Source: Sphaerodactylus townsendi (Eukaryota). From it: a stretch of DNA of 64,000 bases. Below the pieces are notes generated by a model, which was not told where the DNA came from, ran no database searches, and saw nothing but the letters and a program-made list of their open reading frames with translations. The position numbers and the translations under genes were made by a program. Shown piece after piece: positions 22,400-52,416 of the stretch. The stretch is taken from assembly GCF_021028975.2 (NCBI RefSeq), contig NC_059425.1, forward strand, positions 27,714,001 through 27,778,000, read 5' to 3'. Each line of letters starts with the position of its first letter. Within the stretch, counting starts at the first letter, position 1.

Positions 22400-23150
22400 T
22401 CTTTGCTCGGGGTCGGGGATCGGTGAGGCTGCCCTTGGCTGGGAGGGGACCCGGAGGAGGCGGGCCGCTTGGCGGTGGCCAGGCGGGGCGGGGCTCGGCG
22501 GCCCCGGCGTGGTTGGCGCTGCGGGACGCGCCGCTGCTGCTGCTGCCGCCGCTGCCAGCCGGGCCAGTCCTTCCAGCGGGCCGGGGTCAGGGAGCTCTGC
22601 AGGCTGCAGCGGCTGGGCTGGGCTGGGCCGTCCGGGCGCGGGGCCGTCGGGGGCTGCTGCCCGCCTGGATGGAGGAACGGCGAGGAAGCGGAGGCGGCGG
22701 CGCCGGCGCCGGCGGCGACACCTCTCCGGGCGAGGGGAGCGCGGCGCTCACCCCCGGCCCAGCGCGCCCCTTGCCTTGAGAGCCCCCGAAGCCTCGCCCG
22801 GCTCGATGAGCAGCTGCGTCTGGCCGCGGCCATGGCTCCGATGCCCGCGTACCTCAACCCGGCCGCCGTCCTGGTGCTGGTCAGCTGCGACCTGTGCCTC
22901 GTGCGCGCAAGTAAGTCGCGGCTCGGGATCGCGCGCGGCCTCCCCCCGACCCCAGCCCGGGCGCAGCAGGGCAGGCGGCGGCCACGGGGCTCTCGGCTGG
23001 GAGCGGCTGCCCTCTCCAGCCGCCGGGCCGAGACCAGCCACCCATTGGTGCAGGGGGAGAAGGGCAGGCAGGAGGGGGCGCGGGTGGGGGCTGCCGGGTT
23101 GGCCCGGGCCACAGAGCAGGTGAGAACGGGGGCTGCGTCACTGGGACTAC
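22400..23150. promoter_or_regulatory. CpG island / promoter and 5' UTR of FNDC4
   Basis: Very GC- and CpG-rich, GC box GGGGCGGGGC near 22485, spans first coding exon. Confidence 0.85.
22832..22910 (+). CDS. FNDC4: FNDC4 coding exon 1 (signal peptide)
   Basis: Strong Kozak gcggccATGG; MAPMPAYLNPAAVLVLVSCDLCLVRA vs human ..PYLSPTVLLLVSCDLGFVRA; donor gtaagt, phase 1. Confidence 0.9.
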
Positions 23151-23331
23151 AGGAGCCACCCAGCAAACCCCCCCCCCCCCCAGTCAGGGTGAGCAGGAGC
23201 CTTGGCTTACCCCAAACTCCCCCTCCCCTGCAGAAACCTTCCCTGCCTTTCTGTTCCCAGCGGCAGGAGTGAACATCCCAGCCAATTTCATTAACGTAAA
23301 AGCCTGACTCAAGAGAAGACCGCTGCCAGTT

Positions 23332-23391
23332 CTTGAGTGTGGAACATCTTCCCACAGCCTCCCCTTGAGTGTGGAACATCTTCCCACAGCT
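23332..23391. repeat. 32-bp tandem duplication
   Basis: cttgagtgtggaacatcttcccacagc twice. Confidence 0.85.
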
Positions 23392-25036
23392 ACAGCCACA
23401 GCCGGGGACACGCAGGAGCTTCACGCCCTGCAGGGCACCCGGGAGTGCACAGGCAGGCAGGCTTCCAGTTCCCGGGAGGAAACGTCTTCGGCTGGCAGGA
23501 GGTCAGGGAGTCAGTTGCCTCCCTTCTGCCCTTTTGGGTGATCCACCGGCACTTGCAGCTTGTCAGATTTGCAAGGAACTGGGCCAGAAAGGACAGTGCC
23601 TGGCTGCTCACTTCCTGATGTCCACACTAGGATCTCTAGGGAGCTAATACCTCATAAGCAGGGAGCCAGGGGGCTTCCAGACAGCACCCCAAAACAGTGA
23701 TTAAAAGGCTGGTGCTGAAACAGGGACAGGACCTGCCCAGGGCGGCTCTCTGTGGAAACTGCCCTGCTTCAGAGTAGCACATCTCAATGTTTTGTACAGA
23801 AAATAGTATTATATTGGGGGAGAGGAGCTCCACAGTATTAAGCCAACAGCTATTCTGTCATGCTCAGCTGAGAATTCCAAGCCTCTTCGTTTTATTCTGA
23901 AGAGCAAAACTTGAACGTGGCCACCTGGATCATCCCACTGGGGACCTGGAGTCCCTGCAAAGGCACTGGCAACACCTAGCCTGTTGTGCCAAACTCCTTC
24001 GTAAATATGATGCAAACCCCAGCAAAATGTAGTTGTTGCTGGAACAGCCTGTTGTGTTTCGTAAGCGTCTGACTTCTGCACATATATACACCTTCTTGTA
24101 GACTAAATTGCCGTGTCTTCTGGTTATACAGTTAGGTATCACCACAAGTACCCAGAACAAAAATTAAGGATTTGGATTTAAGGATCGGGTGGTAGGTGAT
24201 GGGAAAATTCCTCTGCTTGAAGAACTGGAGAGCAGCTGCCAGCCACAGTAGACAATACTGACCTTGCCCTGTCTATGGTGTGACTCACCGTAAGGCAGCT
24301 CCAAATGTCCAGATCTAGCACAGATTCCTCATCAAGACTTTCAAAGCCCAGCATGGCCTCTTTATCTCTCCTGTCCCAATAGCTCCCTTCAAACCCCTGA
24401 GTAACAGTCCACATGCATCAATCTTGCTTATCATAACTGGAGGAGACATCTCAAGACTACCTAGAACAGCCGCGTAACTGGCTCAAGATTCCCAGACTGA
24501 TGCTGCCCCTGCCTCAAAGAATGAATCCCCACCATTTATTTCCCTTGGTAGCCACTCCTTTTTACAAGCATGAGTATTTTGCTTCCAGAAGCTTTGATTC
24601 TATGCCTTGGCAGTTTCTGTAGTGGGTGAAATCACTGGTCGTTTGTCTTTTTAACAGATGCTGATAAAATATTCAGAGGTCTCTCCATACTCTTGTTTTC
24701 GGGCGACTTATGTGCAGTCCCGCCTCCACATACCACAAACCGTTCCAAACTATCCTCAGGAGCTCCCCGACTTGTTCCCATTTGCATAAAAGGGCAGGCA
24801 AACATCCCTTCTCTTTGCAGATTGGCCCAGTACCAAGCAGAAGAGGGACACAATTAAAATTCAGACATATCGATGATGGTCCTGAAAGATGCAGTTGTAC
24901 CCCAGAGACAACATGTGCTGTCACAGTGAGCATCCCGAGGGAATCCTTTGTAGTACTAATGTGCAGCCAAGATGCTCTTGTTCCGTGTCACTATTCCCAC
25001 TTTCCAGTGTAGCAACCCCTAACCATTTGGCATAGG

Positions 25037-25554
25037 CAGAGGTGGGATCCAGCAGGTTCTCACCAGTTCCCGAGAGTGGGTTACTAATTATTTGTGTGTG
25101 CCGAGAGAGGGTTACTAATTGGGTCCGCTTTTCCATCTCCATGCCCTTGCCTCCCTGAGAGGCATACTGCCTTTGAACGTGAAGGTTCCATATAGCAATT
25201 GCGACTAATAATGTAGCTCCCTGAACTGGGTTAATCCCTTTCAGGTTCTGCAATTCATTGATTCTCAGCCTTTCGTACCTTTTATCTCACCAGTCTCTAT
25301 CAAAGAACCTGTGTGTTTCACCATTGCTGTGTTCAGATTTGTGAGTTGGGGCATTTTCTATAATGTGATGATGATTTAGAAATGACCTGGTGCAAAAAAA
25401 ATTTGGGGGGTCGTGGTGGGGTGGCTGCCCATGGGGGGGGCATCCAACTCAGGTTTTGCCCAGGTCTCAGGTTTGCCTAGGTACGCCTCTGCCCCCTTTG
25501 CTGAGGGGGGCTGGTGAGGGAACCTGTTACTAAATTTTTTGGATCCCACCACTG
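25037..25554. mobile_element. Non-autonomous hAT transposon (same ends as 1033-1424)
   Basis: Same TIRs and subterminal sequence; perfect 8-bp TSD ggcatagg. Confidence 0.9.
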
Positions 25555-26438
25555 GGCATAGGAGATCGTTTCCACCCCATGTCCAGGTTCCCAGGTTCCT
25601 ATCCCAAACCCACCACACCACCCCTTGCATCCAATGGGCTCCAACTGAGGTAAAATGGAAAAATTTCCAGGAGGGTATTGGAAATGCACATTCCACATTC
25701 TGCAGTTGCATTTAGGAGATGGTGTTGTGCTTCAGAACAGCCCCAGGGGAGGGTCTTTGGTTCAATGGTACAGCATCTGTTTTGCCTGCAGATGGAGCAG
25801 AAGGTCCCATGTCCAATCTCTGCCACCTCAAGTTTAACAAAGACTCAGGTAGGAGATGATAGGGAAGATTTTCATCTGACCTTGCCAGTGCCAGGTAGGG
25901 TCAAAGGTCCTCCTGATTCAGTAAAAGGCAGCCTCACGTGTCCTTGTTCTAAGAAGTTTGCATGCAGTGTGCAGTTCTATTTCTCTACCCCTATTGCCAT
26001 CCAATTATTTTTTAAAAGACGTTGAAATTTACTAGAAAAAAATCTGCCATCTTTAATGGCATCCATAATCTGAGTCTTCCGCTTCGGTCATGGTAAAGCA
26101 GCCTGTACTTCTGTGACCCTTGCTGGTCTGAAACAATTGATGAGCCTGTCTCACGTATATTTGTGCTTCCAGCTGCTAGAACTATGCGTCAAAGGTGTTT
26201 CAGAGCCGGTGTATTGTGACGGTTAGACAATTGGACTAGTGATTAAGGAGGCCTGGGTTCAAAATCCCACTCAGTCATGAAACTCACTAATAGAGCCATC
26301 ATGGTGTAGTGGTTAGGAGCAGGTGGATTCTAATCTGGAGAACCAGGTTTGATTCCCCACTCCTCCATTCGAGTGGCAGAGGCTTGGTGAACCAGATGTG
26401 TTTCTGCACTCCTACATTCTTTACAGGAGAGAAAGGTG

Positions 26439-26655
26439 NNNNNNNNNNNNNNNNNNNNNNNNNNNNNNNNNNNNNNNNNNNNNNNNNNNNNNNNNNNNNN
26501 NNNNNNNNNNNNNNNNNNNNNNNNNNNNNNNNNNNNNNNNNNNNNNNNNNNNNNNNNNNNNNNNNNNNNNNNNNNNNNNNNNNNNNNNNNNNNNNNNNNN
26601 NNNNNNNNNNNNNNNNNNNNNNNNNNNNNNNNNNNNNNNNNNNNNNNNNNNNNNN
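26439..26655. other. Assembly gap (N run)
   Basis: 217 N. Confidence 1.
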
Positions 26656-27391
26656 AGTAAACAATTGAAAAATCTAAGTAGGATTCTGCACAGATCTGCT
26701 TAGATGGTGCTGTAAGTGACCGTGCTCCAGTCACTCTATTTTAACCTAACTTGCCTTGCAGGACTGTTGTACTGATAAAATGGAGGAGAGATCCATACAT
26801 GTCATTTTGAATTTCTTGAGGAGTTGGTTTTTATGCCTCACTTTTCTATAAAGGGAACAGAATTGTACCTCAACAGTACAGTCCTATAAAGAGCTATACT
26901 TTTCTATGTCCATTGACTTCAGTGGAGCTAGAAGAGTGTAACTGTGCTTAGGAATGCACTATGAATGTCTGAAAAATTCAAGCAGCTTATTAGACTCTCA
27001 CTTACTTACTTAAATATTGATGTTGCTTAAATAGTCAAAAGGCCACAAGGAGCATCACGCTAATATAATCCCCAAAATTAACCCCTTTTGCAATTGATTA
27101 CCACTCACAAAAATGTAGCTACTAAATAATGTGTTTTTATTATCTTTGTCAGATAATAGCCACTGAATTAAGATTTGTGAGGAAAGATGGGATTTATAAG
27201 AGAAATGTTGCCCTAAATATTTCTGCCTCAGATCACCCCAACAGCAGAGCAACAAACTGTGTTGTAGAGTCTCTGTATGGCCATTCCCACATTCACAACT
27301 TTTATCTGATTAAGGAATGCCTGCAAAAATGCCATTTGGTGACCCTAGATGGAAACATGTTCAGCCTAGCTAACACGAATGCTCTTCTTGG

Positions 27392-27590
27392 TATGGCTAC
27401 CAATCTTGATCCTCCTTGATCTGAGATTGCAAAGGCCTTAGCAGACCAGGTGCTCGGGAGCAGCAGCAGAAGGCCATTGCTTTCACATCCTGCACGTGAG
27501 CTCCCAAAGGCATCTGGTGGGCCACTGTGAGTAGCAGAGTGCTGGACTAGATGGACTCTAGTCTGATCCAGCAGGCTTGTTCTTATGTTC
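27392..27590 (+). mobile_element. CR1 3' UTR fragment
   Basis: Near-identical to 2036-2242. Confidence 0.9.
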
Positions 27591-28245
27591 CTGTATTGAT
27601 GTGCTGTTAAATTCAAGACATATTGTGGAATGGAATTAGAGGAGATCAAGCCATAAATGGCAACTGAGCAAACTCACCAAAACCACTCCTGTTTAATGCT
27701 GGAGCAAGAGATGTCACCATTGATTTGATTTCATTCATCTTGTACGCTTTTCTGAGATTAAAACCCAACATCTGCAATCTATTTACAGTAACCTTCCCCC
27801 CCCCCCCCAAGAGGACACAAATTGATCTTTTCTAATAAGGCTTATAAACCCATCTTTAGACACACGCATCTTACAGTATAGTGAAAAGTCATTTTGCCAC
27901 GCAAGGGCCTCCAGGGATTTCTGACCTAATTCCACTCTGAGAGCTACGCTGAAAACTCAGTTTGGCATCCCCACAACAGAAGGGAGCAATTGCATTAAGA
28001 ATTAATCAATTCCTTCACCTTCCACATCAATCGAGACTCAAGTAACATACAATAATTGGGGAGGGGGGAGAGATCACCTTGGCTATTGCACTGTTAGTTT
28101 TGTATTACACTATTTTTGCTGCAGTGTTTAAAATTGTGGTAATCTCCCTTGAGTTTCAGCACCACCCAATGAACACTCCCCAAAGACTGTTGTGCTCTAC
28201 TGGAAACAGCATATTGGTAATCTCTGACCCAAAAAACATCTAGCT

Positions 28246-28320
28246 CAGGGGTGTCCAACTCTGGCACTTCAGATAGTCATAGACTACAATTCCCATCAGC
28301 CCCTGCTGGCTTCACCCCTG
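28246..28320. mobile_element. hAT MITE, right arm mostly deleted
   Basis: caggggtg..cacccctg with perfect 8-bp TSD atctagct. Confidence 0.85.
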
Positions 28321-28373
28321 ATCTAGCTGTGCTTGACCAGAGCCAGGAATTTTTGGGCCTAGCCTGGTGGAAC

Positions 28374-28573
28374 TTGATCCTCCTTGACCTCCTTGATCTG
28401 AGATTGCAAAGGCCTTAGCAGACCAGGTGCTCAGGAACAGCAGCAGCAGAAGGCCATTGCTTTCACATCCTGCACGTGAGCTCCCAAAGGCACCTGGTGG
28501 GCCACTGCGAGTAGCAGAGTGCTGGACTAGGTGGACTCTGGTCTGATCCAGCAGGCTAGTTCTTATGTTCTTA
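28374..28573 (+). mobile_element. CR1 3' UTR fragment
   Basis: Near-identical to 27392-27590, ttcttatgttctta tail. Confidence 0.9.
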
Positions 28574-29463
28574 ACTCTGTCAAATGAGACCAGAGCCCTG
28601 TAGGATTTACCTCAGTTCTGCCTGTAAGACAGAGATGTTCTGCCTGTAAGACAGAGATGTTCTGCCAGGCCTAAGGTTGAGATGGTCTTACATCAATTGC
28701 CCTCCCTTGCTGGACCCTATTAGAGTTATACATCTCCCGATGATGGCATTGTCTCTGAGAAAATTTCACCCACAGAAGGATGATTTCCCCTTTAGGTGGG
28801 TTACAACAGTGTAAAGAGGGAATTTATTGATTAGTGCCCCATTCCTTGTTGCTTAGGTTTTTAAAAAAATATTTAATACAAATATATGAGTAGGTTTTAC
28901 AGTTTTATATAATTTTATATAACTGCACGGTTAGCAGCCCTGAGCCTGATCTCATCAGGAAATTGTGGGATACAAACCAATCAATCAAACAAATAAATAA
29001 GACTATAAATGAAGCTATTATTATCAGTGCAAGTAGCAGCATTAATAACAATAGTAATAATAATAATAAAGAGAAGGTCCACAATTTACATGTGTATCTC
29101 CCCTAGCCAGATGGCAGAGAGAGGGGGCGGAGAGAAGCAGGTTGGTGTCATAGGCTCAAATTCAATCCAAACTCCAGACTCCCCTTCATCCACTGGGCAG
29201 GAAAACGAATAATACTTCAGTCCTATCAGGTTTGGAAGGCCATGAAGTGCTCACCCGTGCACGGTGAGCATCACCAGTTCCTGAAAGGCAGCAAGGAGGA
29301 CACGCTCCATTCTGCTTCAACGGGCAGAGTTCAGCTTTTGCCCTGACTGCGCATCTCCTCTGAGTGCAAGGCAGAGTGCATGATCCAAGCCAAGCAATTG
29401 GCACAAGTTGGAGGTTTGCTCCAGCGGCAAGACTGTGAATCGGCAATTCTCAAGACTTGGTAT

Positions 29464-29887
29464 CAGAGACGTAGCTAGGCCAGAGTGCATCCGGTGCACA
29501 CTCTGGCTTTTTGGCCCCCTCATCAAGAAGATCTGTTTCTTTAAAGCAAAGGAGCAGTGCAGTTGGAGAAGAGAGCCTGTTTCAGCCCTTTCCAGGGCTG
29601 CAGTCGACCTGGTGGGAACTACATTTCCCAGAGTCTCCTGGGGAATGTAGTTCCCACCAGGCTGTTTGCAGCCTGAAAGGGAACACAGGCAGGCCTCCTT
29701 TCTAGCCTGCTCCATTTGTTAAAGTAAGTGTGTGTTGTGGCATCGTGGGGGGGGGGGTGAGTTGAGGGGCTGACCAATGAGGGGGGAAGAGGGAGGGGTA
29801 GGGGGAATTTTCTGCCCCCCACGTGACCCAAAGCCGTGCGCCTGGTGCATGGCGCACCACCCCAATCCCCTGGTAGCCCCGCCACTG
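29464..29887. mobile_element. Older hAT-type non-autonomous element with internal palindrome
   Basis: Ends cagagacgtagcta / tagccccgccactg; TSD cttggtat/cttggtgt; internal hairpin 29586-29681. Confidence 0.7.
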
Positions 29888-30009
29888 CTTGGTGTAGTTT
29901 GAATTGAGGGACATATCTCAAGTCTTGTCAAATCTGGAGTGCCTACTAAGTACCTGAAAATTTTCCATTCCCTGCCCTGACCTCCTCTGCCTTTTCTTCT
30001 TGGTTGCAG

Positions 30010-30125
30010 ATAGACCTCCTCCCCCCGTCAATGTAACTGTCACACAGCTCAAAGCAAATTCAGCAACTGTCTCCTGGGATGTCCCCGAGGGAGATGTCAT
30101 TATCGGCTATGCCATCTTACAGCAG
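30010..30125 (+). CDS. FNDC4: FNDC4 coding exon 2 (FN3 domain start)
   Basis: cag|..|gtaagt; (N)RPPPPVNVTVTQLKANSATVSWDVPEGDVIIGYAILQQ. Confidence 0.97.
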
Positions 30126-30355
30126 GTAAGTCTGAGACGAGCGTCACTGGTCTTTGGCTTGCACAGCATTGGCCCTTTAGGCCCCTACCTCTCTGGGCTC
30201 CCTATTTCTCCATGGCAGGACCCTGAAATCCCTGGGAGAAATCCCCCCAAACCAGGCCTCCGGTGGAAGGCTAGGAGTGGCTCCTTTTCTCCATATGGAG
30301 AGTGGCTTGCCCCTAGCCTGGCTGGCCCCTCTGATCACCTCCCTGGTTCTGGCAG

Positions 30356-30560
30356 CGGCAAGACGGACAGATGCAAAGATTCATCCGAGAGGTGAACACC
30401 ACGAACCGGGCCTGTGTGCTGTGGGACCTGGCGGAGGATGCAGACTACATCATACAAGTACAGAGTGTCGGTCTCTATGGAGAAAGCCAAGCCAGCAAGA
30501 GAGTCCATTTCCGCACCCTGAAGCAGAGCGATCGCCTCCCATCTAACAGCTCCAACCAGG
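30356..30560 (+). CDS. FNDC4: FNDC4 coding exon 3
   Basis: cag|..|gtagg; RQDGQMQRFIREVNTTNRACVLWDLAEDADYIIQVQSVGLYGESQASKRVHFRTLKQSDRLPSNSSNQ. Confidence 0.97.
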
Positions 30561-30728
30561 GTAGGCAGAGCAGAAAAAAAAAGATTCTGTCCCCTTCCCC
30601 TTTGTCTCCTCCCCAACCTGGCTGCTGTTCTTTGGAGACCTACTTTGAGCATGCAGTAAGTTTGACTTCTGAGGCGGTTCTCAGTGTGGTGGATCAGTAT
30701 CTGTAAATACATCCGTCTCACTCTATGG

Positions 30729-30915
30729 CAGTGGTTCTCAACCTGTAGGTCGGGACCCCTTTGTGGGGTCGAACGACCCTTTCTCAGGGGTCACCTAAGA
30801 CTCTCTGCATCAGTGTTCTCCATCTGTAAAATGGATAAATGTTAGGGTTGGGGGTCACCACAACATGAGGAACTGTATTAAAGGGTCCCGGCATTAGGAA
30901 GGTTGAGAACCACTG
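30729..30915. mobile_element. SPIN (Space Invaders) hAT MITE, URR1-like
   Basis: cagtggttctcaacct.. and ..ggtcaccacaacatgaggaactgtattaaagggtcccggcattaggaaggttgagaaccactg; perfect TSD ctctatgg. Confidence 0.88.
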
Positions 30916-31052
30916 CTCTATGGCATATCTCCTATTAATCCCTGGACCCATCCTGATAGGGAATAAAATCTTGAACTGCCTCCTCCTGGGGCCAGGTCTA
31001 TCATGACCTGGCAGCAATCAAGCAAGATGACGGAGAGGGTGGAGATGAGGGA

Positions 31053-31215
31053 GGGACCATGGCTCAGAGGCAGAGAATCTGTTTGGCATGCAGAAGGTCA
31101 CAGGTTCGATTCTTGGCATGGATCAGGTAACAGGCGACATGAACGATCTGTGCCTTAAATTCTGGAGAATCTATACCGGTCAGTTGATGATAGTGACCTT
31201 GACAGCTAGTCAGTA
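31053..31215 (+). mobile_element. tRNA-derived SINE with CR1-like tail
   Basis: tggctcagaggcagag..caggttcgattcttggc head; related copies about 17251-17460, 38690-38865 (-), 44555-44735. Confidence 0.65.
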
Positions 31216-31383
31216 CAAGGGAGGGAGGGAGGGAGGGGTGCTGTTTTTCCAAGTGTGTGAATATTTTGTGCCCCGTCCCCCTCCAAGCTTCAGAACTGAG
31301 CACCAGAATGGTAAATAAGTTTCACAAGTGAACTTCAGCGAGTCTTAGCTCCATCTCAGCCATGTGTCTTTGCATCCATACAG

Positions 31384-31473
31384 GAGACATCACTGTGGAG
31401 GGGTTGGACAAAGAACGCCAGTTGCAGACAGGGGAGATTATCATCATTGTGGTGGTGCTGCTCATGTGGGCAG
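31384..31473 (+). CDS. FNDC4: FNDC4 coding exon 4 (transmembrane start)
   Basis: cag|..|gtgagt; GDITVEGLDKERQLQTGEIIIIVVVLLMWA. Confidence 0.96.
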
Positions 31474-31724
31474 GTGAGTTAGCTGGACAGCTGTTCTCCA
31501 CACTATAGAGATGAACTTCCCCAAAGGGAGTGGCAGCTTGGGAGACCGGGAGAGAAGGGACTATCTTGGATAACATCCCAAGCTCCCTTCCCTCCCCCAA
31601 ACTCAACACTCCCCAGCTATCACCCCCAGATCTTCAGGAATTTCTCAAGCCAGAGTTGGCAACCCTAACTGTAGTGGGCCACAGCCTATCCAATCACTCA
31701 CTTTTCTGCTTTTCTGGTGCTGAA

Positions 31725-32100
31725 GCAATCAAGGTATTAGAATTGGCTGAAATGACCAAGTTAACTTTGCTACTTAAAGTAAAGAACTTAAGTTCATGGA
31801 CCACCGGAAACCCTTGATAGAATGTCTAGATAAAATAGAAGAAAAACCCCCAACAAATTGATGACTAGTGTTTTTGAAGATTAAGAATTGTTAAATTAAG
31901 ATCTAATAGAGAAAAGTGAGACATTTATTAGTAATGATGCTAAAGATTTAATTTCATTTTGATGCTTAATGATCAAGTGCTGAAAGTGAAGGGTTTAAAA
32001 GGGTTAATATTTGGTGTAGAAGAAACTGGAAGTTTATATAAAATAAATACTGTATAATTTGGTGAACTTCTGTTTTTGTGCATGACTTTGATTTCGAAGT
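31725..32100 (+). mobile_element. L1/Tx1-type LINE 3' relic
   Basis: KVLELAEMTKLTLLLK followed by AT-rich 3' UTR-like sequence. Confidence 0.5.
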
Positions 32101-32313
32101 ACAACTTGTGTTTTTTTATAAAAAGCACGTAGCGGGTGTTTAGAAGCCTCTTGCGCACAGGGCACCAAGTTTGCAGGCAGGCGCAAATATGGCGGATCCT
32201 CTGATAAGAGGCTGAGAAGAGAGATGATTGGGGGGAGGTAACAATTAGCCAGGCAAGGTAGTTAAGCGATGCTGTCTTTTTCTCCCCCACCCACCTCTCT
32301 GGTGACATCCTAG

Positions 32314-32447
32314 CGGTCATTGCGCTCTTTTGCAAACAATATGACATCATCAAGGACAACGATTCCAACAATAACAAGGAGAAGACCAAGCCTTCTTCAG
32401 AACACAGCACTCCAGAGCGGCCCACCGGGGGCCTCCTGCGCAGCAAG
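32314..32447 (+). CDS. FNDC4: FNDC4 coding exon 5 (TM end, cytoplasmic tail)
   Basis: tag|..|gtgagt; AVIALFCKQYDIIKDNDSNNNKEKTKPSSEHSTPERPTGGLLRSK. Confidence 0.96.
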
Positions 32448-39874: not shown

Positions 39875-39880
39875 AATAAA
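39875..39880 (+). terminator. Candidate FNDC4 polyadenylation signal
   Basis: First AATAAA I found downstream of the stop; an alternative lies at 40972-40977. Confidence 0.5.
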
Positions 39881-40296
39881 AGACTCTTCCGACAAAGGCA
39901 GCGCCACAGCCTGTGCTCTCCTATCCCCCACCCAGAGGGGCCTGAGCAGGCAGCAACAGGGTTGCCTCACAGGTGTGTCTTACACAACTGACCACTGGCA
40001 TTGGTTTGGTGGGATGCATTTCTTCTGAACAACTAAATGGCTAGTCCTTGTGGCTGATGTTTTGAACACACAGCCAAGAGCCTTTTTGAAGAAACAACTG
40101 GAAGCCACACATGTGCCTCCTCCCCACACCATGGTGTCTGCCTCAGGGCCCTTGAATAGATTTCCACCAAGAGGCCAGGCTGTATTTTTCCTCCTAACAT
40201 TGCCACAAAGTAGGATTCTACCAGCAAAATACCCAAAAATTCTGCTATTAACATCCCTGCAAAACGTATGAACAGATAATCTATGTCCATTCAAAT

Positions 40297-40442
40297 CAGG
40301 GGTGTCCAACTCTGGTGCTTCAGAAGTTCATGGACTACCATTCCCATCAGCCCCTGCTGGCATGGCCAATTGGTCATGTCATCAGGGGCTGATGGGAATG
40401 GTAGTCCATGAACTTCTGAAGCACCAGAGTTGGACACCCCTG
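40297..40442. mobile_element. Palindromic hAT MITE
   Basis: caggggtgtccaac..gttggacacccctg; flanks attcaaat / atttgaat. Confidence 0.9.
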
Positions 40443-41630: not shown

Positions 41631-41636
41631 TTTATT
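41631..41636 (-). terminator. Candidate polyadenylation signal of the LDLRAP1-like gene
   Basis: AATAAA on minus strand followed by a GT/T-rich tract (ttgtactgttgtattttgg). Confidence 0.55.
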
Positions 41637-42117
41637 TCCCTTTAGAAAAGGACATGAAAAACTAACATCTTTTTGCTACAAAGCTGATTTGGCAGTGATG
41701 AGAGACGGGGACAGAGGCGGGGCGGGGCTGCCACCTTCCCACTGGACCACAAGGAAAGCTGGCAGAGAGGCTAGAGTTCCCCTGTACCCCCACAACACAC
41801 AGCTTCCTCCAAGAAGCAGGGGAAAAGGGGATTGAAACTGATCTCCCTGTATAGTAGCATGCCTGACCAGAGGCGGGATGCACCCCTTGGCCTGCAGGGG
41901 TGGGGTCTTCAAACAAGGCCCAGCCCCATTACCCAATATACCCACAGGAGGTCCTGGAGCACCCCCAGCTACAGGCAGAGCCTGGCGCAGTCTACCCTCA
42001 GGTGACTCAGGCCAAGCCGCAGAAGAACTGCTGGTGACCCAGAGGCTAACTGAGGCTCGGAGTGAAGTAAGGTGATGCCAGCCAATCAGGGAGCTGCGCC
42101 TGGAGAGCTGAAGGAGA

Positions 42118-42298
42118 TCAGCTGGTCCTTTGTGTGCTACAGAAGAGTGGTGCTGGAGATGGCGAAGATGGCGGTGTCAGAGTCCAAGTTAGAAAAGCAT
42201 CCCTGGGGGCAGGTGGCTGTTGGGGTGGCCACTTCCCATCGTCGCCTCCGACTGGAACTGTGTGACTGGGGAGCTCCCGAAAGCAACGCAGCCCACAT
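42118..42298 (-). CDS. LDLRAP1-like adaptor, putative terminal coding exon 8
   Basis: Acceptor ctgtgtttcag; a phase-2 join gives GCGLRCFRELPSHTV..STQRTS*; no recognisable ARH homology, supported only by splice signal, phase and downstream polyA signal. Confidence 0.45.
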
Positions 42299-42781
42299 CT
42301 GAAACACAGGCGGGCAGAAGCAGAGGGACTGAGAAGAGTGACACGGGGTGGGGAGGAGCACACCAAGGGGTGGGAAAAATGGGGAAATCAAGAACCCCAA
42401 AAGCTCGGTTACCTGTCGCAGAGCAGCCACCTTCTTCTGTGAAACTTGGGGCAGAGAAAAAGAGACGTGTCAGAGCAAGAGAAGCAGAGCCTTCCCCCCC
42501 CCCCACACACACACACAAACGCCAAGGAGCTGGGTGACCTCTCATTCCCACCACAATCCTGCAGCCATGACTGAACTCCCTCCTTGCCATCCGCTCTTTT
42601 ATTTATTTAGATATTTATATCCTGCTTTTCTTCCCAGTGGGGGCTCAAAGCAGTGTACATCATCCTCTCCTCCTCTTTTCCATCCGTTCCACAATCACCG
42701 TCTGAGGTAGGCTAGGCCAAGAGAAAGTGAATGGCCAGCCAAGCAAGCAGCCATGGCAGAGCACTGTGGCCTCTCACCTAC

Positions 42782-42840
42782 CCAGAAAAGGAGTCGGGGA
42801 GATCGCTTTCCTCCTCTTCTTCTTCCTCCTCATCCTCCTC
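42782..42840 (-). CDS. LDLRAP1-like exon 7 (acidic)
   Basis: tag|..|gtaggt; EEDEEEEEEEESDLPDSFS(G), phase 0 to 2, like the ARH exon ELDDGLDEAFS(R). Confidence 0.7.
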
Positions 42841-42966
42841 CTAGCACCAGAGAAGAAGAACATGTGGTTGCAGCCCCCGGCCTCCTCTGAAGGCCTCCAG
42901 AATTCACTGCCTCCAAGGCCTGGGAGAGGGAAGGCCTCACAGCCCCAGTCCCCTCAGCCCTACTTC

Positions 42967-43067
42967 CAGTGATGTGATTCCAATAATTTAACAACCGGTT
43001 GTTTACAAGCACCATTTTAACAACCGGTTCTGCCGAAGTGGTGCGAACCTACTGAATCCCACCACTG
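42967..43067. mobile_element. Short hAT MITE
   Basis: cagtgatgtgattc..gaatcccaccactg; perfect TSD cctacttc. Confidence 0.85.
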
Positions 43068-43177
43068 CCTACTTCCCAGGGGGCAGCAACACGCCAGGAG
43101 GGAGGAGTGCACACTCGCCAGCACACAGCAGCTTAGTTAGGGACCAAAGGGGAAGGGGCCTTTGCCCAACACCATAC

Positions 43178-43281
43178 CTCAAAGTTTGTCTTAAAGGGGG
43201 GACTGCCCATGGGTGACCTGACTGGCTGGCAGGTACTTTCCACAGGGCACAGCATGCTCAGCGAGTGCTCTTGCCGGGAGC
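43178..43281 (-). CDS. LDLRAP1-like exon 6
   Basis: tttcag|..|gtatgg; GSRQEHSLSMLCPVESTCQPVRSPMGSPPFKTNFE; phase 1 to 0 bridges exons 5 and 7 in frame. Confidence 0.65.
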
Positions 43282-43672: not shown

Positions 43673-43745
43673 CTGCCTGGGCAGCCTCCCAAAGATCCAG
43701 AGCTACCTGGAAGGCCTGCGCCACAGTCAGCGTCACAGCTTGGGC
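43673..43745 (-). CDS. LDLRAP1-like exon 5 (PTB C-terminal helix)
   Basis: AQAVTLTVAQAFQVALDLWEAAQA vs ARH AQAVTLTVAQAFKVAFEFWQ; 73 nt. Confidence 0.93.
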
Positions 43746-43990
43746 CTGGATGTGGGGAAAGAAAACCCATGTGCCTGAGAAGGCAGCCAACCTGGACATA
43801 TCCCTGAGACAGAATGTGGGGAGGGGGGAAAGGCAGGCAACAGACAAGGCAGAAGGCCAAGACACGGAAGCCACCCCAGGAACCAGCCAGCCTGCACTGT
43901 CTCGTCTAGGCAGCACGTGGAACCACCCCCTCTTCCTTCCCCAAGCCCCTGCAGTCCCCACAGGGGAAAGCAGTCCACAGAGGAGCTTAC

Positions 43991-44105
43991 GATCTTCTTC
44001 TTGGGTGACAGAAAAGCATGGCACTCAAGCGCACCGCTCTGCGGGTTCTGGGCCACGTAGGCAAAGACTTTGTTCTGCAGCTTGTCCGTGGTGCAATAGG
44101 AAATC
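43991..44105 (-). CDS. LDLRAP1-like exon 4 (PTB)
   Basis: ISYCTTDKLQNKVFAYVAQNPQSGALECHAFLSPKKKI vs ARH ISYCTADKMHDKVFAYIAQSQHNQSLECHAFLCTKRKM; 115 nt. Confidence 0.95.
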
Positions 44106-45080
44106 CTAGGGGGAGAGGGCAGGAAAGGTGTTCAGTGCTTCCTCTGGGCATGTTACTACAAGCAGGGGAAATGAGCAGTCCTCACCAAAAACCAGAGGAG
44201 CCTGTGAGCCGCAGGGACAGAATTTGAGAGGGGGGAGGGGTTGGGGGTGTAGCATATGAAAGAGTCCACACGCAAAAACAACAGGCTGCAAACCATCCAC
44301 AGCCAAGAGAATAGAAGCGAGCCAGAATGTATATCTCCTCTCTTCCCAACAGGTCTGGGAGCACTACAGGTGGACCAGAGGTCAGCCATGCTGCATGCAG
44401 ACAGAAAACACTTCCTTCCAAATAAAGGAGCGGTCAGATTAAACGCAAACCCAGTAGCACTTGAAAGACCAATCACGTTTACTCCAGCAGAAGCTTCGGC
44501 AGGTCAGAGCTCACTTCGCCAGATGCATCTCAGACTCACAAAAGCTGAGCAGAGGGATTGTGGGTCAGCGATAAAGCATCAGCTTAGCACACAGAAGATC
44601 CAAAATTCAATCCCTGGATCCCTCCAGTTAAAAGTATCAGGTCGTGTGAAAGGGCTGGAGAGCTGCTGCCAGTCAGAGCGGGCAATACGGACGTTGATGG
44701 ATCAAAGGTCTGATTCCATACAAGGCAGCTTCACGAGTTCAGGCCTCTGCTGGAATAAACTCTCTCTTGAAGGGGCCACAGGACTCCTGTTTAACGTTGT
44801 TAACAATAGACTAACATAACTGCCTGTCTTGAATTACTATCAGGTAGGAAGCACACACAAGGATGCCAGTCAGAGCCCCCAGATGGCTCCCTCATCTTTC
44901 TCCTCCTCAAGGAAACTCACAGCCAGGTCTGTGTGTTCTGGGCACTTCCCTTCACACCAGGCTTTAGGTTTCTACACATCAAAGTCTAAGGTTCTTTTGC
45001 ATGATTTTGAACCTGCTCAAGATCATGATGCTACAGCTGCCAGTGGTAGGTGAACCTACCTACAAGGAGAACCTGGGTGA

Positions 45081-45306
45081 NNNNNNNNNNNNNNNNNNNN
45101 NNNNNNNNNNNNNNNNNNNNNNNNNNNNNNNNNNNNNNNNNNNNNNNNNNNNNNNNNNNNNNNNNNNNNNNNNNNNNNNNNNNNNNNNNNNNNNNNNNNN
45201 NNNNNNNNNNNNNNNNNNNNNNNNNNNNNNNNNNNNNNNNNNNNNNNNNNNNNNNNNNNNNNNNNNNNNNNNNNNNNNNNNNNNNNNNNNNNNNNNNNNN
45301 NNNNNN
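45081..45306. other. Assembly gap (N run)
   Basis: 226 N. Confidence 1.
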
Positions 45307-45570
45307 TCGTCAAATCCATCCGTCCGTCCAATCCATATCCGTCCATCCAAGTCCAAAGTCCAATCCAAATCCCGTCCCGTCCGTCCAATCCAATCCGTCC
45401 ATCCAAATCCAAATCCGTCCCCGTCGTCCATCCATCCGTCAAGATCCATCCAATCCCATCCGTCCAATCCAATCCAATCCAATCCATCCGTCCGTCCGTC
45501 CATCCAAAGTCCATCCATCACCGTCATCCGTCCGATGATCCATCCAATCCATCCGTCATCCCATTCATTC
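45307..45570. repeat. Degenerate (ATCC/GTCC/AATCC)n microsatellite
   Basis: Low-complexity repeat abutting the gap. Confidence 0.9.
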
Positions 45571-45936
45571 CCCACCGTCCCAGACATTTGATCCCCGATC
45601 GAGGACTCTGGGCGGGTTACAACAAGCTTAGAACATTAAAATATGGCACTCAGCTCAAACTGGCTGAACACACCATTAACAACCAGCGGCCCATGCTGGA
45701 AAATGATGGTCTTCTCACAGTCAATGGGAGGCAAACCTTTTCTTGCCCAAAGACAGTCTCCAAACAGGGCCTGGAACAAACCAAAATCTGTCCTCATATC
45801 CACTCATTCACTTGTTCATTTGCCAATGTTATACAGGCTGTCCAATGTCAGCAGTGCCCTTCCACTCGAACACTGCCTGCCCACCCCACCTGCAACACTT
45901 TTCCCACAGCGCATGCCCTCTTCTCTGGTGCCTCAC

Positions 45937-46049
45937 CTGTAGATGGAGACATTTTCAATGGTCTCCTTTGTCTCGGCATCCTGTAGAGAAAGGCCCCGGG
46001 GCGACACAGTCAGAATCACCTTCTGGAACTTCTTCGGTCCCACCCGAGC
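45937..46049 (-). CDS. LDLRAP1-like exon 3 (PTB)
   Basis: ARVGPKKFQKVILTVSPRGLSLQDAETKETIENVSIY(R) vs ARH AKASGKKLQKVTLKVSPRGIILTDNLTNQLIENVSIYR; 113 nt. Confidence 0.95.
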
Positions 46050-46484
46050 CTAAAGACAGGGAGAAGCAGCAGGGGAAGAGAGATGGGGGCCATGTGCTCA
46101 CCAGCATTTCCCCTCACCAGTGATTCTAGCAACCAGCTGAAGTACATAATTTTCATGGCAGAGGAAGGTAGGGTGGGTGTGAGGACTGCTTCCTTCTCTC
46201 AGCAGGCAGCCACCTGACACCAGGCACTTTCTGGAGGTGACATCAGGCATCCAAACTTCCCAACAGTGTCCTGAAAAAGCTATCATCAACCTCCCCACTC
46301 CAGTCACACTGACTCTCCGCGCTTGTTCTCCCTACAAACCAGTGCTCAGAATGTCACAGAAGACTTGCCAAATGCTAACAGAGGAGGGGCGGGCAGAGAG
46401 GCAAAGGGGAAGGCTTTCCTTGGCCTGCTTTAGTCCAAGTTGTGCTTCATTTGCCTGGCTCTCTTCTAGGCAGCCACAACCTAC

Positions 46485-46627
46485 CATGGTAATGATCCGG
46501 TGAATGGCTGCAGTCGCCATATCCTCCCCTTTAGGTTTCTCCACCAACGTCATGCCCAAGTACTTGAGCGCAAACCCCATGCCCTCCAGAAGGGGCTCGC
46601 GCATGTCAGCCCAGGTCTCTGGCAGTT
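46485..46627 (-). CDS. LDLRAP1-like exon 2 (PTB start)
   Basis: QLPETWADMREPLLEGMGFALKYLGMTLVEKPKGEDMATAAIHRIITM vs ARH KLPENWTDTRETLLEGMLFSLKYLGMTLVEQPKGEELSAAAIKRIVAT; 143 nt. Confidence 0.95.
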
Positions 46628-47520: not shown

Positions 47521-49656
47521 CCTGCAAAAAGCCCTTGGGCAAAACTGGGCTGGGGAAGGCAAATGAAGAAGAGGAGTTTGGATTTATAACCTGCCTTTCT
47601 CTCCTGTAAGGAGACTCAAAGGGGCTTACAAGCTCCTTGCCCTTCCTCTCGCCACAACATACACTTTGTGAGCTAGTTGGGGCTGAGAGAGTTCAGACAG
47701 AACTGTGACTAGGCCAAGATCACCCGGCCGGCTTCATGTGTAGGAGCGGGGAAACAAATCTGTTTCAACAAATAACAGTCTGCCGCTTATGCAGAGAAGT
47801 AGGGAATCAAACTTGGTACTCCAGATTAGAGTCCACCTGCTCTTAACCACTACACCACACTGGCTCTCATGGTAGAAGGCCAAATAAAGTTGTTAGAACT
47901 GCCACATAGTTGCTTCATGGCCACTATAAATGTCTCTGCACTTAGAACATGAAAGAGTTCAACACAGAATCTCCACTGTGTGGATGCAGCCTTCATGTTT
48001 CATCAATATTTAAACAGAACTTCTTCCAAGTCTGTCTCTTTGGTGAAGTTTAAGTAAATTCTACCTTGTTTCCCAGGGGAAAAAAATTATTTGTTTCCAT
48101 CAGGGAACAATTAACTGCTCAGTGGTTCCTTCTCTCTGCCCCTCTTATCCTTCAGTTCTTCCTGAGAGTAAGTGTGCATGATGCTCTTTTGCTGAATGTG
48201 GGACACAAACGCCTCATGCCGCCTTCTGTATCTGTGTCAGGCTGGATTCCCTTTACCTGGGCTCCCTGCTGCCACACACATTCCATGTGAGACATAAATA
48301 TTCATGGCCCAGAATGAGGACAGCCCTGATTTCTGGGGCAGGCAATTTCCAGACTCTGAAAGGAGACTTTCAGAGAATCAGCAGCAGCCCCAACACTCAG
48401 CTCATAAAGCCTTGGGGCACAGAGTGAACAGAAGGGAGAGCCAGCCTATACAACAGCAGACCAGGGCCTTGTGGGATCTGGCTCAGTTCCTCAGGGTCTG
48501 CCTGCAAGATGGATATGTTCTGCCAGGCACATGATTGAGGACTTCTGGCAGCGCTGTTACATCCATGGGGCACTGGGGAGAGCCCCCCCCTCTATGCCCC
48601 CTCCTCACTTTTTGGAGTGTTGCTATTCTCATGAGTTTGCTCTGCTGAGCATTTAGGGCACCATCTTATTCGTATTTTATGGATTTTAATCTATTCTATT
48701 TTTTCTCTTTTAAAATGTATTTGATGTGTTGTTTCCTGCCCCGAGCCCCCTTTAGTGGAGGAGGGATGAGATATGAATTTAAAATATAAATACCTAAACA
48801 CCTAGGGGACAAATCCTGGGAATCAGTTTTCTAGCATATTAATATTAATAATGTTATGAATATAGCACTATCACAGTGCACAGTGCTTCTGTATAGCAAT
48901 TATCTCCCTTGCAATTCCACCCCTAAGCCAGTCTGTTGTTTGACTTGCCACATGTAAGATCACAAACAGAAACACAAGAAGATCCCCTTCAGCAATCATC
49001 TACTCCTTTCCGGCACTCTGTTTTATCTCTGTTCCCCTGAGAAACCCTACCTGTAGACTGAGGAAGCTGCCTTCTGCCTATTCAGGTGATGGGGCAGCTA
49101 TCCCCCAGTGGGCGACCCAATATTCCCAGTTCCATTGGGTCTGCCTTCCTGGAGTCCACGTTAAAGGGGAGGGGGGAGAATGAAAGAAGGATACAGGTGT
49201 GGACATAGGAACACCCATCAGGTTGAATACCTGGCTAGGGTGATGCCTCTCTTGGCAAGGCTCCCGCCCGTCAGGCACCCATCGGCTCACCCCCTTCTCC
49301 AACATGTCCAAGAGGTTGAAGTCGGAAGGGGGGTTCAACAGGTACCCAACCGGCAGGTCTGATTGGAGGAGGTCATCTCAGCAGAGCCCAGTCTGAACAG
49401 CCCCCCTCCCCGAGTAGCTGAGCAACAAAGAGAAGGAGGAGGAGAAGGGACTCGGCGGAGCGACCCCCTTCATGCAGCCCCATGCACATTCCCTAGGCAG
49501 AGACCCGTGGGGCGCGCTCCGGAGGATGCTGCTGGCTCAGCATCCCGTTTCCCAACAACCGTTCCAGCATCCCATGATCACCAGCCTCCCTCCGGACGGG
49601 AACTGTGGATCCGGGGAAAGAGCGGATCGGCTCTGCTCCCACCCGTATTAACTCAC

Positions 49657-49753
49657 GCTGCCGGTGCCGGCGAAGGCGGGAGACGCCCAGGCGATGCCGA
49701 GCCAGGCTGGGGCTCCTGAGCACAGCCCGTCCCGCAGCCCGCAGCGCCTCCAT
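49657..49753 (-). CDS. LDLRAP1-like (low density lipoprotein receptor adapter protein 1-like) exon 1, start codon
   Basis: MEALRAAGRAVLRSPSLARHRLGVSRLRRHRQ vs ARH MDALKSAGRALIRSPSLAKQSWGGGGRHR; donor gtgagt, phase 1. Confidence 0.93.
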
Positions 49754-50034
49754 CGGGGAAACCAAGGGAAGAGAGGGACCAGACGGTTGGGCGGAGCCTC
49801 GACTGAGCGGGCGGGGCTTGCCCAGGAAGGGCGGGGCTTTGCCTGGCTCCGTCGCCAACTCTCCTCCTCAGCTTCGAGCGCTACGACTGCGCATGGCCGT
49901 CTAACCAAGCTCCTAGTCCCGCCCCTCCTTCCGCGCGTCGCCGTCGCTGTCCTCAGCGGCGGCCTGTTCCCGGTGGCTGTTGCCTAGGTAACGGGCGCGG
50001 ACGCGACGCGGACCTCGAGCGCCTTGATCGGGCC
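49754..50034. promoter_or_regulatory. Bidirectional CpG-island promoter (LDLRAP1-like / IFT172)
   Basis: 281 bp between divergent ATGs; CpG-rich; GC boxes near 49789, 49809, 49828; TGCGCATG near 49889. Confidence 0.85.
49979..49992. promoter_or_regulatory. RFX X-box
   Basis: GTTGCCTAGGTAAC fits the palindromic X-box consensus, 42 bp before the ATG of a core ciliary gene. Confidence 0.8.
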
Positions 50035-50073
50035 ATGCCTCTGAGGCACGTCCGGACTCTGCTCACCCCGCAG
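50035..50073 (+). CDS. IFT172: Intraflagellar transport protein 172, exon 1
   Basis: gccATG; MPLRHVRTLLTPQ vs human MHLKHLRTLLSPQ; donor gtgaga. Confidence 0.93.
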
Positions 50074-50119
50074 GTGAGAACCGGCGAGCCGGGAAATGCT
50101 GTTCACACGAGCTATAGGT

Positions 50120-50526
50120 CAGGGATGGCGAACCTTTTCGAGACCGAGTGCCCAAACTGCAACCCAAAACCCACTTATTTATCGCCAAGTGCCAACACTG
50201 CAATTTAACTTGAATACTGAGGTTTTGGTTTAGAAAAACGGTTGGCTCAGAGGCGCACGTTACTCGGGAGTAAGCTTGGTGAAGCAACCATGCAACGCTT
50301 CGAATGGGTGAATCACGATCCTAGGAGTGTTTACTCAGAAGAAACCCCATTGCCAGCAACCGAGCTTACTCCCAGGTAAGGATCGTGCCCAGGCCAGCCT
50401 AGATGTGTGTGTGGGGGGGTGGGGGTGATTTTCCGCCCCCCCCCCCATGAACTGTGTGCACGTGTGCCCACAGAAAGGGGTCTGAGTGCCACCTCTGGCA
50501 CCCGTGCCATAGGTTCACCACCGCTG
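50120..50526. mobile_element. Non-autonomous hAT transposon in IFT172 intron 1
   Basis: cagggatggcgaacct..aggttcaccaccgctg; TSD ctataggt/ctataggg. Confidence 0.85.
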
Positions 50527-51218
50527 CTATAGGGGGTCAAACCGAAGTAGAAGCGGAGTTACAATGGGGTTGCACGTGTGAGGAATAGGCTGTCTGTGCA
50601 GTCTCTTCTGAGTGGGGCAACAACATGAATTGGAACGGCTTGGAAACGAAGACAGACCAGTTTTTCAGGAGACCGGTGGTATCTTAACCACTACCAACAT
50701 CTGCCATGAGATTTCGTGAGCCACAACTCGCTTCTGTGGGTGCTGTATGGGAGGAACTAATTTTGCAGACTTTTATAAGGAAAATTACAGAAGAACCATC
50801 CCTTCTGTAAGAGTCACACACCAAAGAAGAAGTTAGAATAGGGTTGGATAGAGAAGGGCTAAATTTGAATCCTGTCATAAATCTTCCAGGTGTGATTCTT
50901 TGTATAAGGATCTGAAATGGATTAGGTTGCTACGTGTAATGGGTAGTGAAGTCAGAGATTCCAGCCTCCCTGTCATGACATACAAACAAACATAACTTGA
51001 AGTTGAAAGGGTGTCCCAGGTTTCTCCGAGAAACCATTAAGCAACTGCCTGCAATACAAACATCAAAAATGAATGTGATAATCCATAATCTCAGCCAGTT
51101 AACTTAATCCTCGGATGTGCTGCTGTCCAACCCATGTTTGAAGAAGCTGGGGTTTCTGATGGGCCGCAGTAGGCCCATGCCCCTAAACTGTGTGATCATT
51201 ATCCTACTTTTTTTGCAG

Positions 51219-51979: not shown

Positions 51980-52416
51980 GTAAGGGCCTTTATATGGGGA
52001 GGGTGGGCCATTGCAGGAGCAAGCACCAGGCTGAGTTCCTACGATAGGCCCCTGCTGATTGGGTTGCTGCTGTGTCTCCACTCCAGATCTAACTCTGGTT
52101 GAAAGGCATGTAGACTTGGTCTTCATTCCTGTCTCTTTCAAATCTCCTGAGAGATCATGTGGTTCATTCTGCTTTTTCAGATTGCTAATGGGTTAAACAT
52201 GCCCAGTCACAGATCTCCCACATCTCAGCTAATTTTCAGCTTTGGGGTGTAGTCAGGCCCTGTAGATACACAAAAGTGATGCCTTTCCATGGGCAAGGAC
52301 AAGCTGAACTCAATCAGCATTGTTTCCTCTAGTGGGAATCCCTGGGTACCCCTGTATCCCCATAGAACCTTTCCTGGTGACCTATGGCAACAATACTCTT
52401 TTTCCCTGTTGTGCAG

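What the first reader, a model, noticed from the sequence alone, without database searches (positions are those of the whole stretch)
49657..50073. Head-to-head promoter couples the ARH-like adaptor to ciliary IFT172 through a shared RFX X-box
Seen: the ATGs are 281 bp apart in one CpG island with GC boxes and the palindromic GTTGCCTAGGTAAC (49979-49992). Established: RFX factors drive ciliary genes through X-boxes; IFT172 is an IFT-B subunit needed for Hedgehog signalling; the ARH cargo megalin/LRP2 takes up SHH. Inference: the adaptor may be co-expressed with the ciliogenesis programme and act on NPxY receptors at the ciliary pocket, an undescribed link between lipoprotein-receptor trafficking and cilia.
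Basis: partly seen in the sequence, partly recalled or inferred. Interest (0 to 1): 0.7.

Follow-up and report, generated by a model that had tools for sequence, protein, structure and literature searches.

The report
IFT172 X-box beside ARH paralogue
In a gecko, the cilia gene IFT172 sits back-to-back with a little-studied duplicate of the cholesterol-receptor adaptor ARH that has lost its clathrin-binding motif, but the cilia-regulator (RFX) site between them likely drives only IFT172, as in other back-to-back cilia gene pairs.

Summary
The ATGs at 49753(-) and 50035(+) are 281 nt apart in one CpG island, and the X-box at 49979-49992 is beyond chance (40 of 20,000 shuffles). It lies 42 nt from IFT172 and 225 nt from the adaptor.

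The adaptor is not ARH. It is the si:dkey-71h2.2-type paralogue: NPxY-type PTB domain kept, clathrin box absent (0 of 97 sauropsid records), AP-2 motif cut in half. Canonical LDLRAP1 lies on C6 without an X-box.

Coupling is poorly supported. IFT172 is an RFX target in frog and mouse. The paralogue is 417 kb away in frog, about 290 gene models away in eel, and absent from the human interval. The same genome has this layout at IFT46/ARCN1. In frog Multicilin data, 0 of 9 head-to-head partners were significantly induced (pairs picked by me). One weak hint in favour: the frog orthologue rose 2.9-3.5-fold, not significant. No gecko RNA run was listed.

LRP2 at the ciliary pocket is already published, and this scan noted similar head-to-head X-box pairs on other DNA. 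Verdict: ordinary promoter, under-studied paralogue.

The parts
49979..49992 (.). RFX X-box, 14 nt, fits the strict consensus on both strands; 42 nt before the IFT172 ATG
49451..50200 (.). CpG island over both first exons (shared TATA-less promoter region)
   Evidence: (o/e 0.89)
49789..49834 (+). three GC boxes at 20-nt spacing, 36-76 nt from the adaptor ATG
49888..49895 (.). NRF1-like element (motif name recalled) at the middle of the gap; a same-spaced element can be read from turtle and Anolis-like gene-model extensions
49919..49924 (-). fourth GC box; changed at 49920 in the contig of run X4 (organism B)
49657..49753 (-). coding exon 1 of the LDLRAP1-like (si:dkey-71h2.2-type) paralogue
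43673..46627 (-). exons 2-5 (46627-46485, 46049-45937, 44105-43991, 43745-43673; 143/113/115/73 nt, same sizes as the canonical gene) encoding the PTB/PID domain
42189..43281 (-). exons 6-9 (43281-43178, 42840-42782, 42444-42413, 42298-stop 42189): diverged tail with an acidic run, no clathrin box, half AP-2 motif; predicted protein 281 aa; exon 8 is predicted from splice sites and homologues only
50035..50073 (+). IFT172 coding exon 1 (13 codons); the gene continues past 57476
22850..32447 (+). FNDC4 coding exons (synteny anchor; tail-to-tail with the paralogue)

Best explanation
The 281-nt gap is a TATA-less CpG-island promoter region between IFT172 and an old LDLRAP1 paralogue, and its X-box is likely the ordinary IFT172 RFX site that would raise IFT172 transcription with little or no effect on the paralogue. 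Shown: the layout, the motifs, their off-centre position, gene identities, and the loss of the clathrin box and half the AP-2 motif. Inferred: the central NRF1-like element and the GC boxes give basal transcription both ways, while RFX (with FOXJ1 in motile-cilia cells) boosts the IFT172 direction. Also inferred: the paralogue binds FxNPxY tails through its PTB domain but is a poor clathrin/AP-2 recruiter, so it is not an ARH-type uptake adaptor. It probably sits here because of amniote gene order (GCKR-FNDC4-paralogue-IFT172), not because of a shared ciliary programme.
For: Position: the box is 42 nt versus 225 nt from the two ATGs. IFT172 is a direct RFX target where the partner is not beside it. 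Frog: Rfx2 peak enrichment 18.5, log2FC -1.06 in morphants (PMC3889689 supplement). Mouse: the promoter X-box fragment was bound and transactivated by RFX4 (PMC5752003 passages). The pairing is not kept. In Xenopus the syntenic LDLRAP1-labelled model stays tail-to-tail with FNDC4 but lies 417 kb from IFT172. Eel locus tags are about 290 models apart. The two genes lie on different contigs in 3 of 7 teleosts comparable. The human interval lists IFT172, FNDC4, GCKR with no such gene (PMC2570409 passage). The same genome has IFT46/ARCN1 with ATGs 284 nt apart and a relaxed X-box 57 nt from IFT46 and 213 nt from ARCN1. In frog Notch-icd versus Notch-icd+Multicilin data at 9 h, 0 of 9 head-to-head partners rose significantly (0.49-1.85x) while 8 of the 9 ciliary genes did (8-34x). 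Tail motifs: clathrin box in 0 of 97 sauropsid and 0 of 120 fish-clade records; AP-2 motif in 1 of 97 and 16 of 120. Both motifs are present in the canonical C6 gene.
Against: The box is symmetric and within the +/-500 nt window in which human X-boxes work (PMC5838959), so it is in range of both starts. The frog orthologue rose 1.5x, 2.9x and 3.5x at 3, 6 and 9 h of Multicilin on low counts (padj 1, 0.90, 0.82), more than any of the 9 control partners. The two genes share a contig in 16 of 16 comparable sauropsid assemblies, and painted-turtle accessions are near-consecutive. An Anolis-like record keeps the GC box and NRF1-like spacing, so the tight layout may be old. The control pairs were chosen by me, mostly with abundant housekeeping partners, and X-boxes in those frog promoters were not checked. 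Start sites are unknown.
Confidence: 0.7

Rival explanations
1. The X-box is truly shared in sauropsids. The paralogue is an RFX-driven, PTB-only adaptor that caps NPxY tails (for example LRP2) without coupling them to clathrin/AP-2, and so would hold or re-route receptors at the ciliary base.
For: Symmetric box 225 nt from the adaptor ATG. Non-significant 2.9-3.5x rise of the frog orthologue. PTB 63% identical to the canonical copy (93 of 147), with Y117, needed for megalin binding (PMC3704979), conserved. LRP2 is at the ciliary pocket; ARH binds dynein and centrosomes. Same contig as IFT172 in 16 of 16 sauropsids.
Against: 0 of 9 partners induced in frog. LDLRAP1 is absent from the Rfx2 lists searched, though a paralogue may be missed by human-name mapping. 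The frog rise cannot come from the IFT172 box, which is 417 kb away. The gene is missing from the human interval although mammals use LRP2 at cilia.
Confidence: 0.13
2. Passive spill-over: RFX binding opens the island and raises the paralogue's RNA modestly in ciliated cells and testis, with no ciliary function for the protein.
For: Short shared island. Some control partners drift up: PPCS 1.48x, TNFAIP1 1.43x, THNSL1 1.85x.
Against: None of those drifts is significant, and five partners sit below 1x. Rfx2 binding alone rarely raised expression (Quigley and Kintner passage).
Confidence: 0.15
3. The 14-mer is a chance match with no function.
For: Two other strict matches occur in the window outside promoters.
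Against: 0.2% of shuffles. IFT172 is a tested RFX target in frog and mouse. Peptides in mis-extended IFT172 gene models of a turtle (strict fit possible) and two lizards (relaxed fit) allow a box just before the ATG.
Confidence: 0.02

Closest known systems
RFX X-box promoters of IFT genes (mouse Ift172/RFX4, Xenopus ift172/Rfx2)
   Same: Consensus X-box next to the IFT172 start in a CpG island
   Different: Here the neighbour starts 281 nt away; in frog the orthologous neighbour is 417 kb off and it is absent from the human interval
Head-to-head ciliary/non-ciliary pairs (IFT46-ARCN1, IFT80-SMC4, CEP290-TMTC3, HSPB11-LRRC42, ZMYND12-PPCS, WDR78-MIER1)
   Same: Divergent starts within a few hundred bases; gecko IFT46-ARCN1 has almost the same spacing and an off-centre X-box-like site
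   Different: The partner here is a lineage-restricted paralogue of unknown expression rather than a housekeeping gene; this pair is not kept in frog, whereas those pairs are
ARH/LDLRAP1 clathrin-associated sorting protein (PDB 3SO6)
   Same: N-terminus, PTB domain (E 9e-54 for the Eublepharis orthologue P0001) and exon sizes 143/113/115/73
   Different: No LLDLE clathrin box; AP-2 motif ends at the exon junction without the R265-bearing half; acidic run instead; separate gene from the C6 copy
si:dkey-71h2.2 / RefSeq 'LDL receptor adapter protein 1-like'
   Same: Groups with it apart from canonical LDLRAP1 (82/88 support); frog orthologue keeps the FNDC4 linkage; no clathrin box
   Different: Fish and caecilian records can keep the full AP-2 motif (16 of 120 fish-clade records); sauropsid records do not

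Membership tests
RFX X-box target promoter | Match to GTNRCC(N0-3)RGYAAC | tested here: met
   both strands; 40 of 20,000 shuffles
RFX X-box target promoter | Within about 500 nt of the start site | tested here: met
   42 nt from the IFT172 ATG; start sites themselves not mapped
RFX X-box target promoter | Conserved in orthologues | tested here: inconclusive
   indirect only: peptides in three mis-extended gene models can encode a box; unchanged in organism B, but 7 changes in 1,142 nt give no power
RFX X-box target promoter | RFX binding and dependence in this species | not testable with these tools
   published for frog and mouse IFT172
Bidirectional (head-to-head) promoter | Divergent genes under 1 kb apart in a CpG island, TATA-less, with Sp/NRF1 motifs | tested here: met
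   feature list from PMC10887517 passages
Bidirectional (head-to-head) promoter | Co-regulation of both genes by the shared element | not testable with these tools
   no RNA holder listed; frog proxy 0 of 9 partners induced
Bidirectional (head-to-head) promoter | Layout kept across vertebrates | tested here: not met
   frog 417 kb apart; eel about 290 models apart; human interval lacks the gene; sauropsids share a contig, orientation not seen
ARH/LDLRAP1 CLASP | NPxY-type PTB domain | tested here: met
   PF00640, 3SO6, 93 of 147 identical to the C6 copy
ARH/LDLRAP1 CLASP | Clathrin box (LLDLE; motif definition recalled) | tested here: not met
   absent in the window gene and in 0 of 97 and 0 of 120 records; present on C6
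ARH/LDLRAP1 CLASP | AP-2 beta2-appendage motif ending in R265/266 (pattern recalled; residue from PMC3704979) | tested here: not met
   first half only; no matching downstream exon found in 32500-42781; 1 of 97 sauropsid records, in an unrelated tail
ARH/LDLRAP1 CLASP | Binding to LDLR/LRP2 tails and to dynein | not tested
   no binding prediction or assay run

The most novel reading that the evidence does not exclude
Reptiles and birds keep an RFX-co-regulated decoy version of ARH. It grips NPxY receptor tails but has shed its clathrin and AP-2 hooks stepwise (clathrin box early, AP-2 motif switchable by last-exon choice in fish, gone in sauropsids). Switched on with IFT172, it parks LRP2-type receptors at the ciliary pocket and tunes SHH uptake, a layer that mammals lost.
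Probability: 0.1. Interest if true: 0.65.

Novelty: new member of a known kind. Interest (0 to 1): 0.25.

Why it matters
As it stands this is one more X-box at an IFT gene with a divergent neighbour. It is useful mainly as a caution that a shared X-box does not predict ciliary function for the partner. The more interesting by-product is the paralogue: a conserved non-mammalian ARH duplicate without coat-binding motifs, for which my library searches found no dedicated study. If it were RFX-driven and periciliary, it would give a chick-testable regulator of LRP2/SHH trafficking. The locus also allows a clean dual-reporter test of how a symmetric RFX site acts in one direction.

Tried and rejected
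RNA runs: no RNA holder listed, so start sites and expression were not tested. DNA contigs of X1, X3 and X4 were laid on 49000-50700 but are too close to test conservation.

A metagenome scan with a bird orthologue, aimed at seeing the layout in another species, found nothing. Accession adjacency was mixed: close in Chrysemys (5-8 apart), Gopherus flavomarginatus (27), Lerista (24 locus tags) and Pterocles (59); hundreds to thousands apart in four others. It shows no orientation.

Own-genome controls: the IFT20 family search found nothing; the IFT57 island had no match to my regexes and its neighbour was not examined.

Frog pairs: 13 looked up, 4 dropped. DYNC2H1 was not in the stored part; MNS1/TEX9 are tail-to-tail in frog (both induced); DNALI1/SNIP1 are not adjacent; BBS2/OGFOD1 are on different scaffolds.

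The zebrafish Foxj1 target table could not be searched, nor files 13-17 of PMC5245798, and files 7-9 were cut when stored; these could bear on the paralogue's regulation. Three primary ARH papers (structure, centrosome, clathrin) were not held.

A Pfam scan of 15 other window ORFs gave no hits. The ESM Atlas added only the same family. No fold or complex prediction was run: the PTB fold is settled by sequence, and a PTB-NPxY pair would pass by likeness to 3SO6.

Rejected: that the gene is LDLRAP1 itself; that the 14-mer is a perfect palindrome; that the box is chance.

Full report
OBSERVATION. The coordinates are right. The minus-strand ATG is at 49753 and the plus-strand ATG at 50035, 281 nt apart, inside a CpG island at 49451-50200 (o/e 0.89). 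The 14-mer at 49979-49992 fits the RFX consensus quoted in PMC5752003 on both strands and is 12 of 14 palindromic. Of 20,000 dinucleotide shuffles of the gap, 40 had a strict box and 161 had four or more GC boxes. The box is 42 nt from the IFT172 ATG and 225 nt from the other ATG. An NRF1-like element (name recalled) lies in the middle, and there is no TATA box.

THE GENES. The plus-strand gene is IFT172: one 70-aa exon is 100% identical to a Sphaerodactylus townsendi record and ten further matches line up along the window. The minus-strand gene has nine predicted coding exons and 281 aa. Its nearest records are sauropsid 'LDL receptor adapter protein 1-like'. A second copy on C6 is the canonical LDLRAP1: same PTB exon sizes, 93 of 147 PTB residues identical, LLDLE clathrin box and the full AP-2 motif across its last two exons. 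It has no strict or relaxed X-box within about 1 kb of its ATG. In a 26-row PTB tree the 14 paralogue rows (reptile, bird, frog, caecilian, and fish si:dkey-71h2.2) separate from the 7 canonical rows with 82/88 support, which is moderate; the tetrapod subgroup has 95/95. Among records with at least 45 residues after the PTB, the clathrin box occurs in 0 of 97 (of the 120 listed) and 0 of 120. The AP-2 pattern occurs in 1 of 97 and 16 of 120; both patterns are recalled. R265, needed for AP-2 binding (PMC3704979 passages), maps to the last residue of that motif in a canonical record and has no counterpart here, whereas Y117, needed for megalin binding, is kept (numbering offset assumed). So the protein likely works like the cargo-binding half of ARH but fails membership as an ARH-type clathrin adaptor.

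SYNTENY. The gecko order is GCKR(-), FNDC4(+), paralogue(-), IFT172(+). A human interval list runs KRTCAP3, IFT172, FNDC4, GCKR with no such gene (PMC2570409, one passage, Build 35). No mammal is named among the 120 listed of 217 hits or the ten representatives named. Loss in mammals is therefore inferred, and monotremes and marsupials are untested. Compared by eye, the two genes share a contig length in 16 of 16 sauropsid assemblies where both came from one assembly (two further species were not comparable); painted-turtle accessions are 5-8 apart. This shows linkage, not orientation. In teleosts 4 of 7 species share a contig and 3 do not; one search adds two more that share, but eel locus tags are about 290 models apart. 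In Xenopus laevis an LDLRAP1-labelled model lies tail-to-tail with FNDC4 on the IFT172 scaffold, 417 kb from the IFT172 start (PMC5245798 supplements). I take it as the orthologue from position alone. Mis-extended gene models give indirect promoter sequence. A turtle IFT172 extension can encode a strict X-box 27 codons and an NRF1-like element 47 codons before the ATG (gecko 147 nt). Two lizard extensions can encode only a relaxed box 5-6 codons before it, and several other peptides in these extensions can also host a relaxed box. An Anolis-like adaptor extension (species not looked up) keeps the GC-box and NRF1-like spacing.

IS THE BOX SHARED? No gecko RNA run was listed, so proxies were used. 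IFT172 is a direct Rfx2 target in frog, and its mouse promoter X-box fragment is bound and weakly transactivated by RFX4, although its mRNA was unchanged in the knockout. The gecko genome repeats the architecture at IFT46/ARCN1: 284 nt, with a relaxed box 57 nt from IFT46 and 213 nt from ARCN1 (ARCN1 recognised from its recalled N-terminus and the frog adjacency). In the frog 9-h Notch-icd versus Notch-icd+Multicilin table I looked up 13 pairs (12 from memory, one also prompted by an earlier scan note); 9 were divergent neighbours. Fold changes, ciliary gene / partner: IFT46 8.3 / ARCN1 0.98; IFT80 15.7 / SMC4 0.87; CEP290 12.3 / TMTC3 0.81; HSPB11 16.8 / LRRC42 0.87; IFT122 19.9 / MBD4 1.0 (2.9 kb apart); IFT20 2.4 (padj 0.075) / TNFAIP1 1.43; ZMYND12 33.7 / PPCS 1.48; WDR78 19.9 / MIER1 0.49; ENKUR 31.7 / THNSL1 1.85. 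No partner was significant. The sample is biased to housekeeping partners, covers motile-cilia induction only, and X-boxes in those promoters were not checked. Against my reading, the frog orthologue rose 1.5x, 2.9x and 3.5x (15 to 53 counts at 9 h; padj 0.82), while IFT172 rose 4.9x, 18.9x and 35x. LDLRAP1 is not in the core multiciliated-cell list, the Rfx2 overlap tables or the Foxj1 overlap table, with the caveat of name mapping.

MECHANISM. Best reading (0.70): a Sp/NRF1-type CpG-island promoter fires both ways at a basal level (such motifs are enriched at bidirectional promoters; PMC10887517 passages), and RFX at the off-centre box boosts IFT172. This step is inferred. Rivals: passive spill-over (0.15), a true RFX-driven decoy adaptor (0.13), and a chance motif (0.02).

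WHAT IS KNOWN. LRP2 at the ciliary pocket or periciliary membrane is published (PMC10172251 and bioRxiv 2020.07.15.205252, passages). ARH couples megalin to dynein and is reported at centrosomes and spindle poles (PMC6912373 and PMC13198606, passages; the primary paper was not held). The general link is therefore not new. Searches for LDLRAP1 with cilia and Foxj1, for the fish or paralogue gene names and for '-like'/paralog phrases listed no study of this paralogue; I saw only listings, and subscription journals are mostly missing. Earlier scan notes describe similar head-to-head X-box pairs elsewhere; none covers this locus.

VERDICT. Observation confirmed, interpretation partly supported, new member of a known kind, interest 0.25.

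Noticed in passing
window 50115-50530: A very high-copy repeat (summed contig depth in the millions) starts about 40 nt after the IFT172 exon-1 donor and truncates the CpG island on that side.
   Followed up: no
P0535/P0449, P0308/P0563, P0047/P0045; window 42782: Fish, frog and turtle paralogue records end in alternative last exons after the same junction. In fish one form completes the AP-2 motif and the other does not, suggesting a splice switch for AP-2 binding; the gecko seems to keep only the null form.
   Followed up: partly
L018 (G000:C12 about 25,679,000-25,679,400): Most of ARCN1 exon 2, with its acceptor, appears twice in tandem: a local duplication or an assembly artefact.
   Followed up: no
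G000:C12:25679560-25679847: IFT46 and ARCN1 are head-to-head, 284 nt apart, with an off-centre relaxed X-box, mirroring this finding.
   Followed up: yes
P0132, P0152 against window 22850-32447 and 51200 onward: Crane and naked mole-rat gene models fuse FNDC4 to IFT172 exon 2: read-through or mis-prediction that would skip the paralogue in the crane.
   Followed up: no
window 50038-50040: IFT172 residue 2 is Pro here but Gln in 13 of the 17 other records printed.
   Followed up: no
window 49920: The contig of run X4 (organism B) has a change inside the fourth GC box, while the X-box is unchanged.
   Followed up: partly
window 6468-6482, 52377-52391; G000:C4:45101992: Further X-box matches outside CpG islands: upstream of FNDC4, in IFT172 intron 3, and about 4 kb upstream of the IFT57 island.
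   Followed up: no
window 45307-45600: GGAT/GGAC simple repeat next to an N stretch in intron 3 of the paralogue.
   Followed up: no
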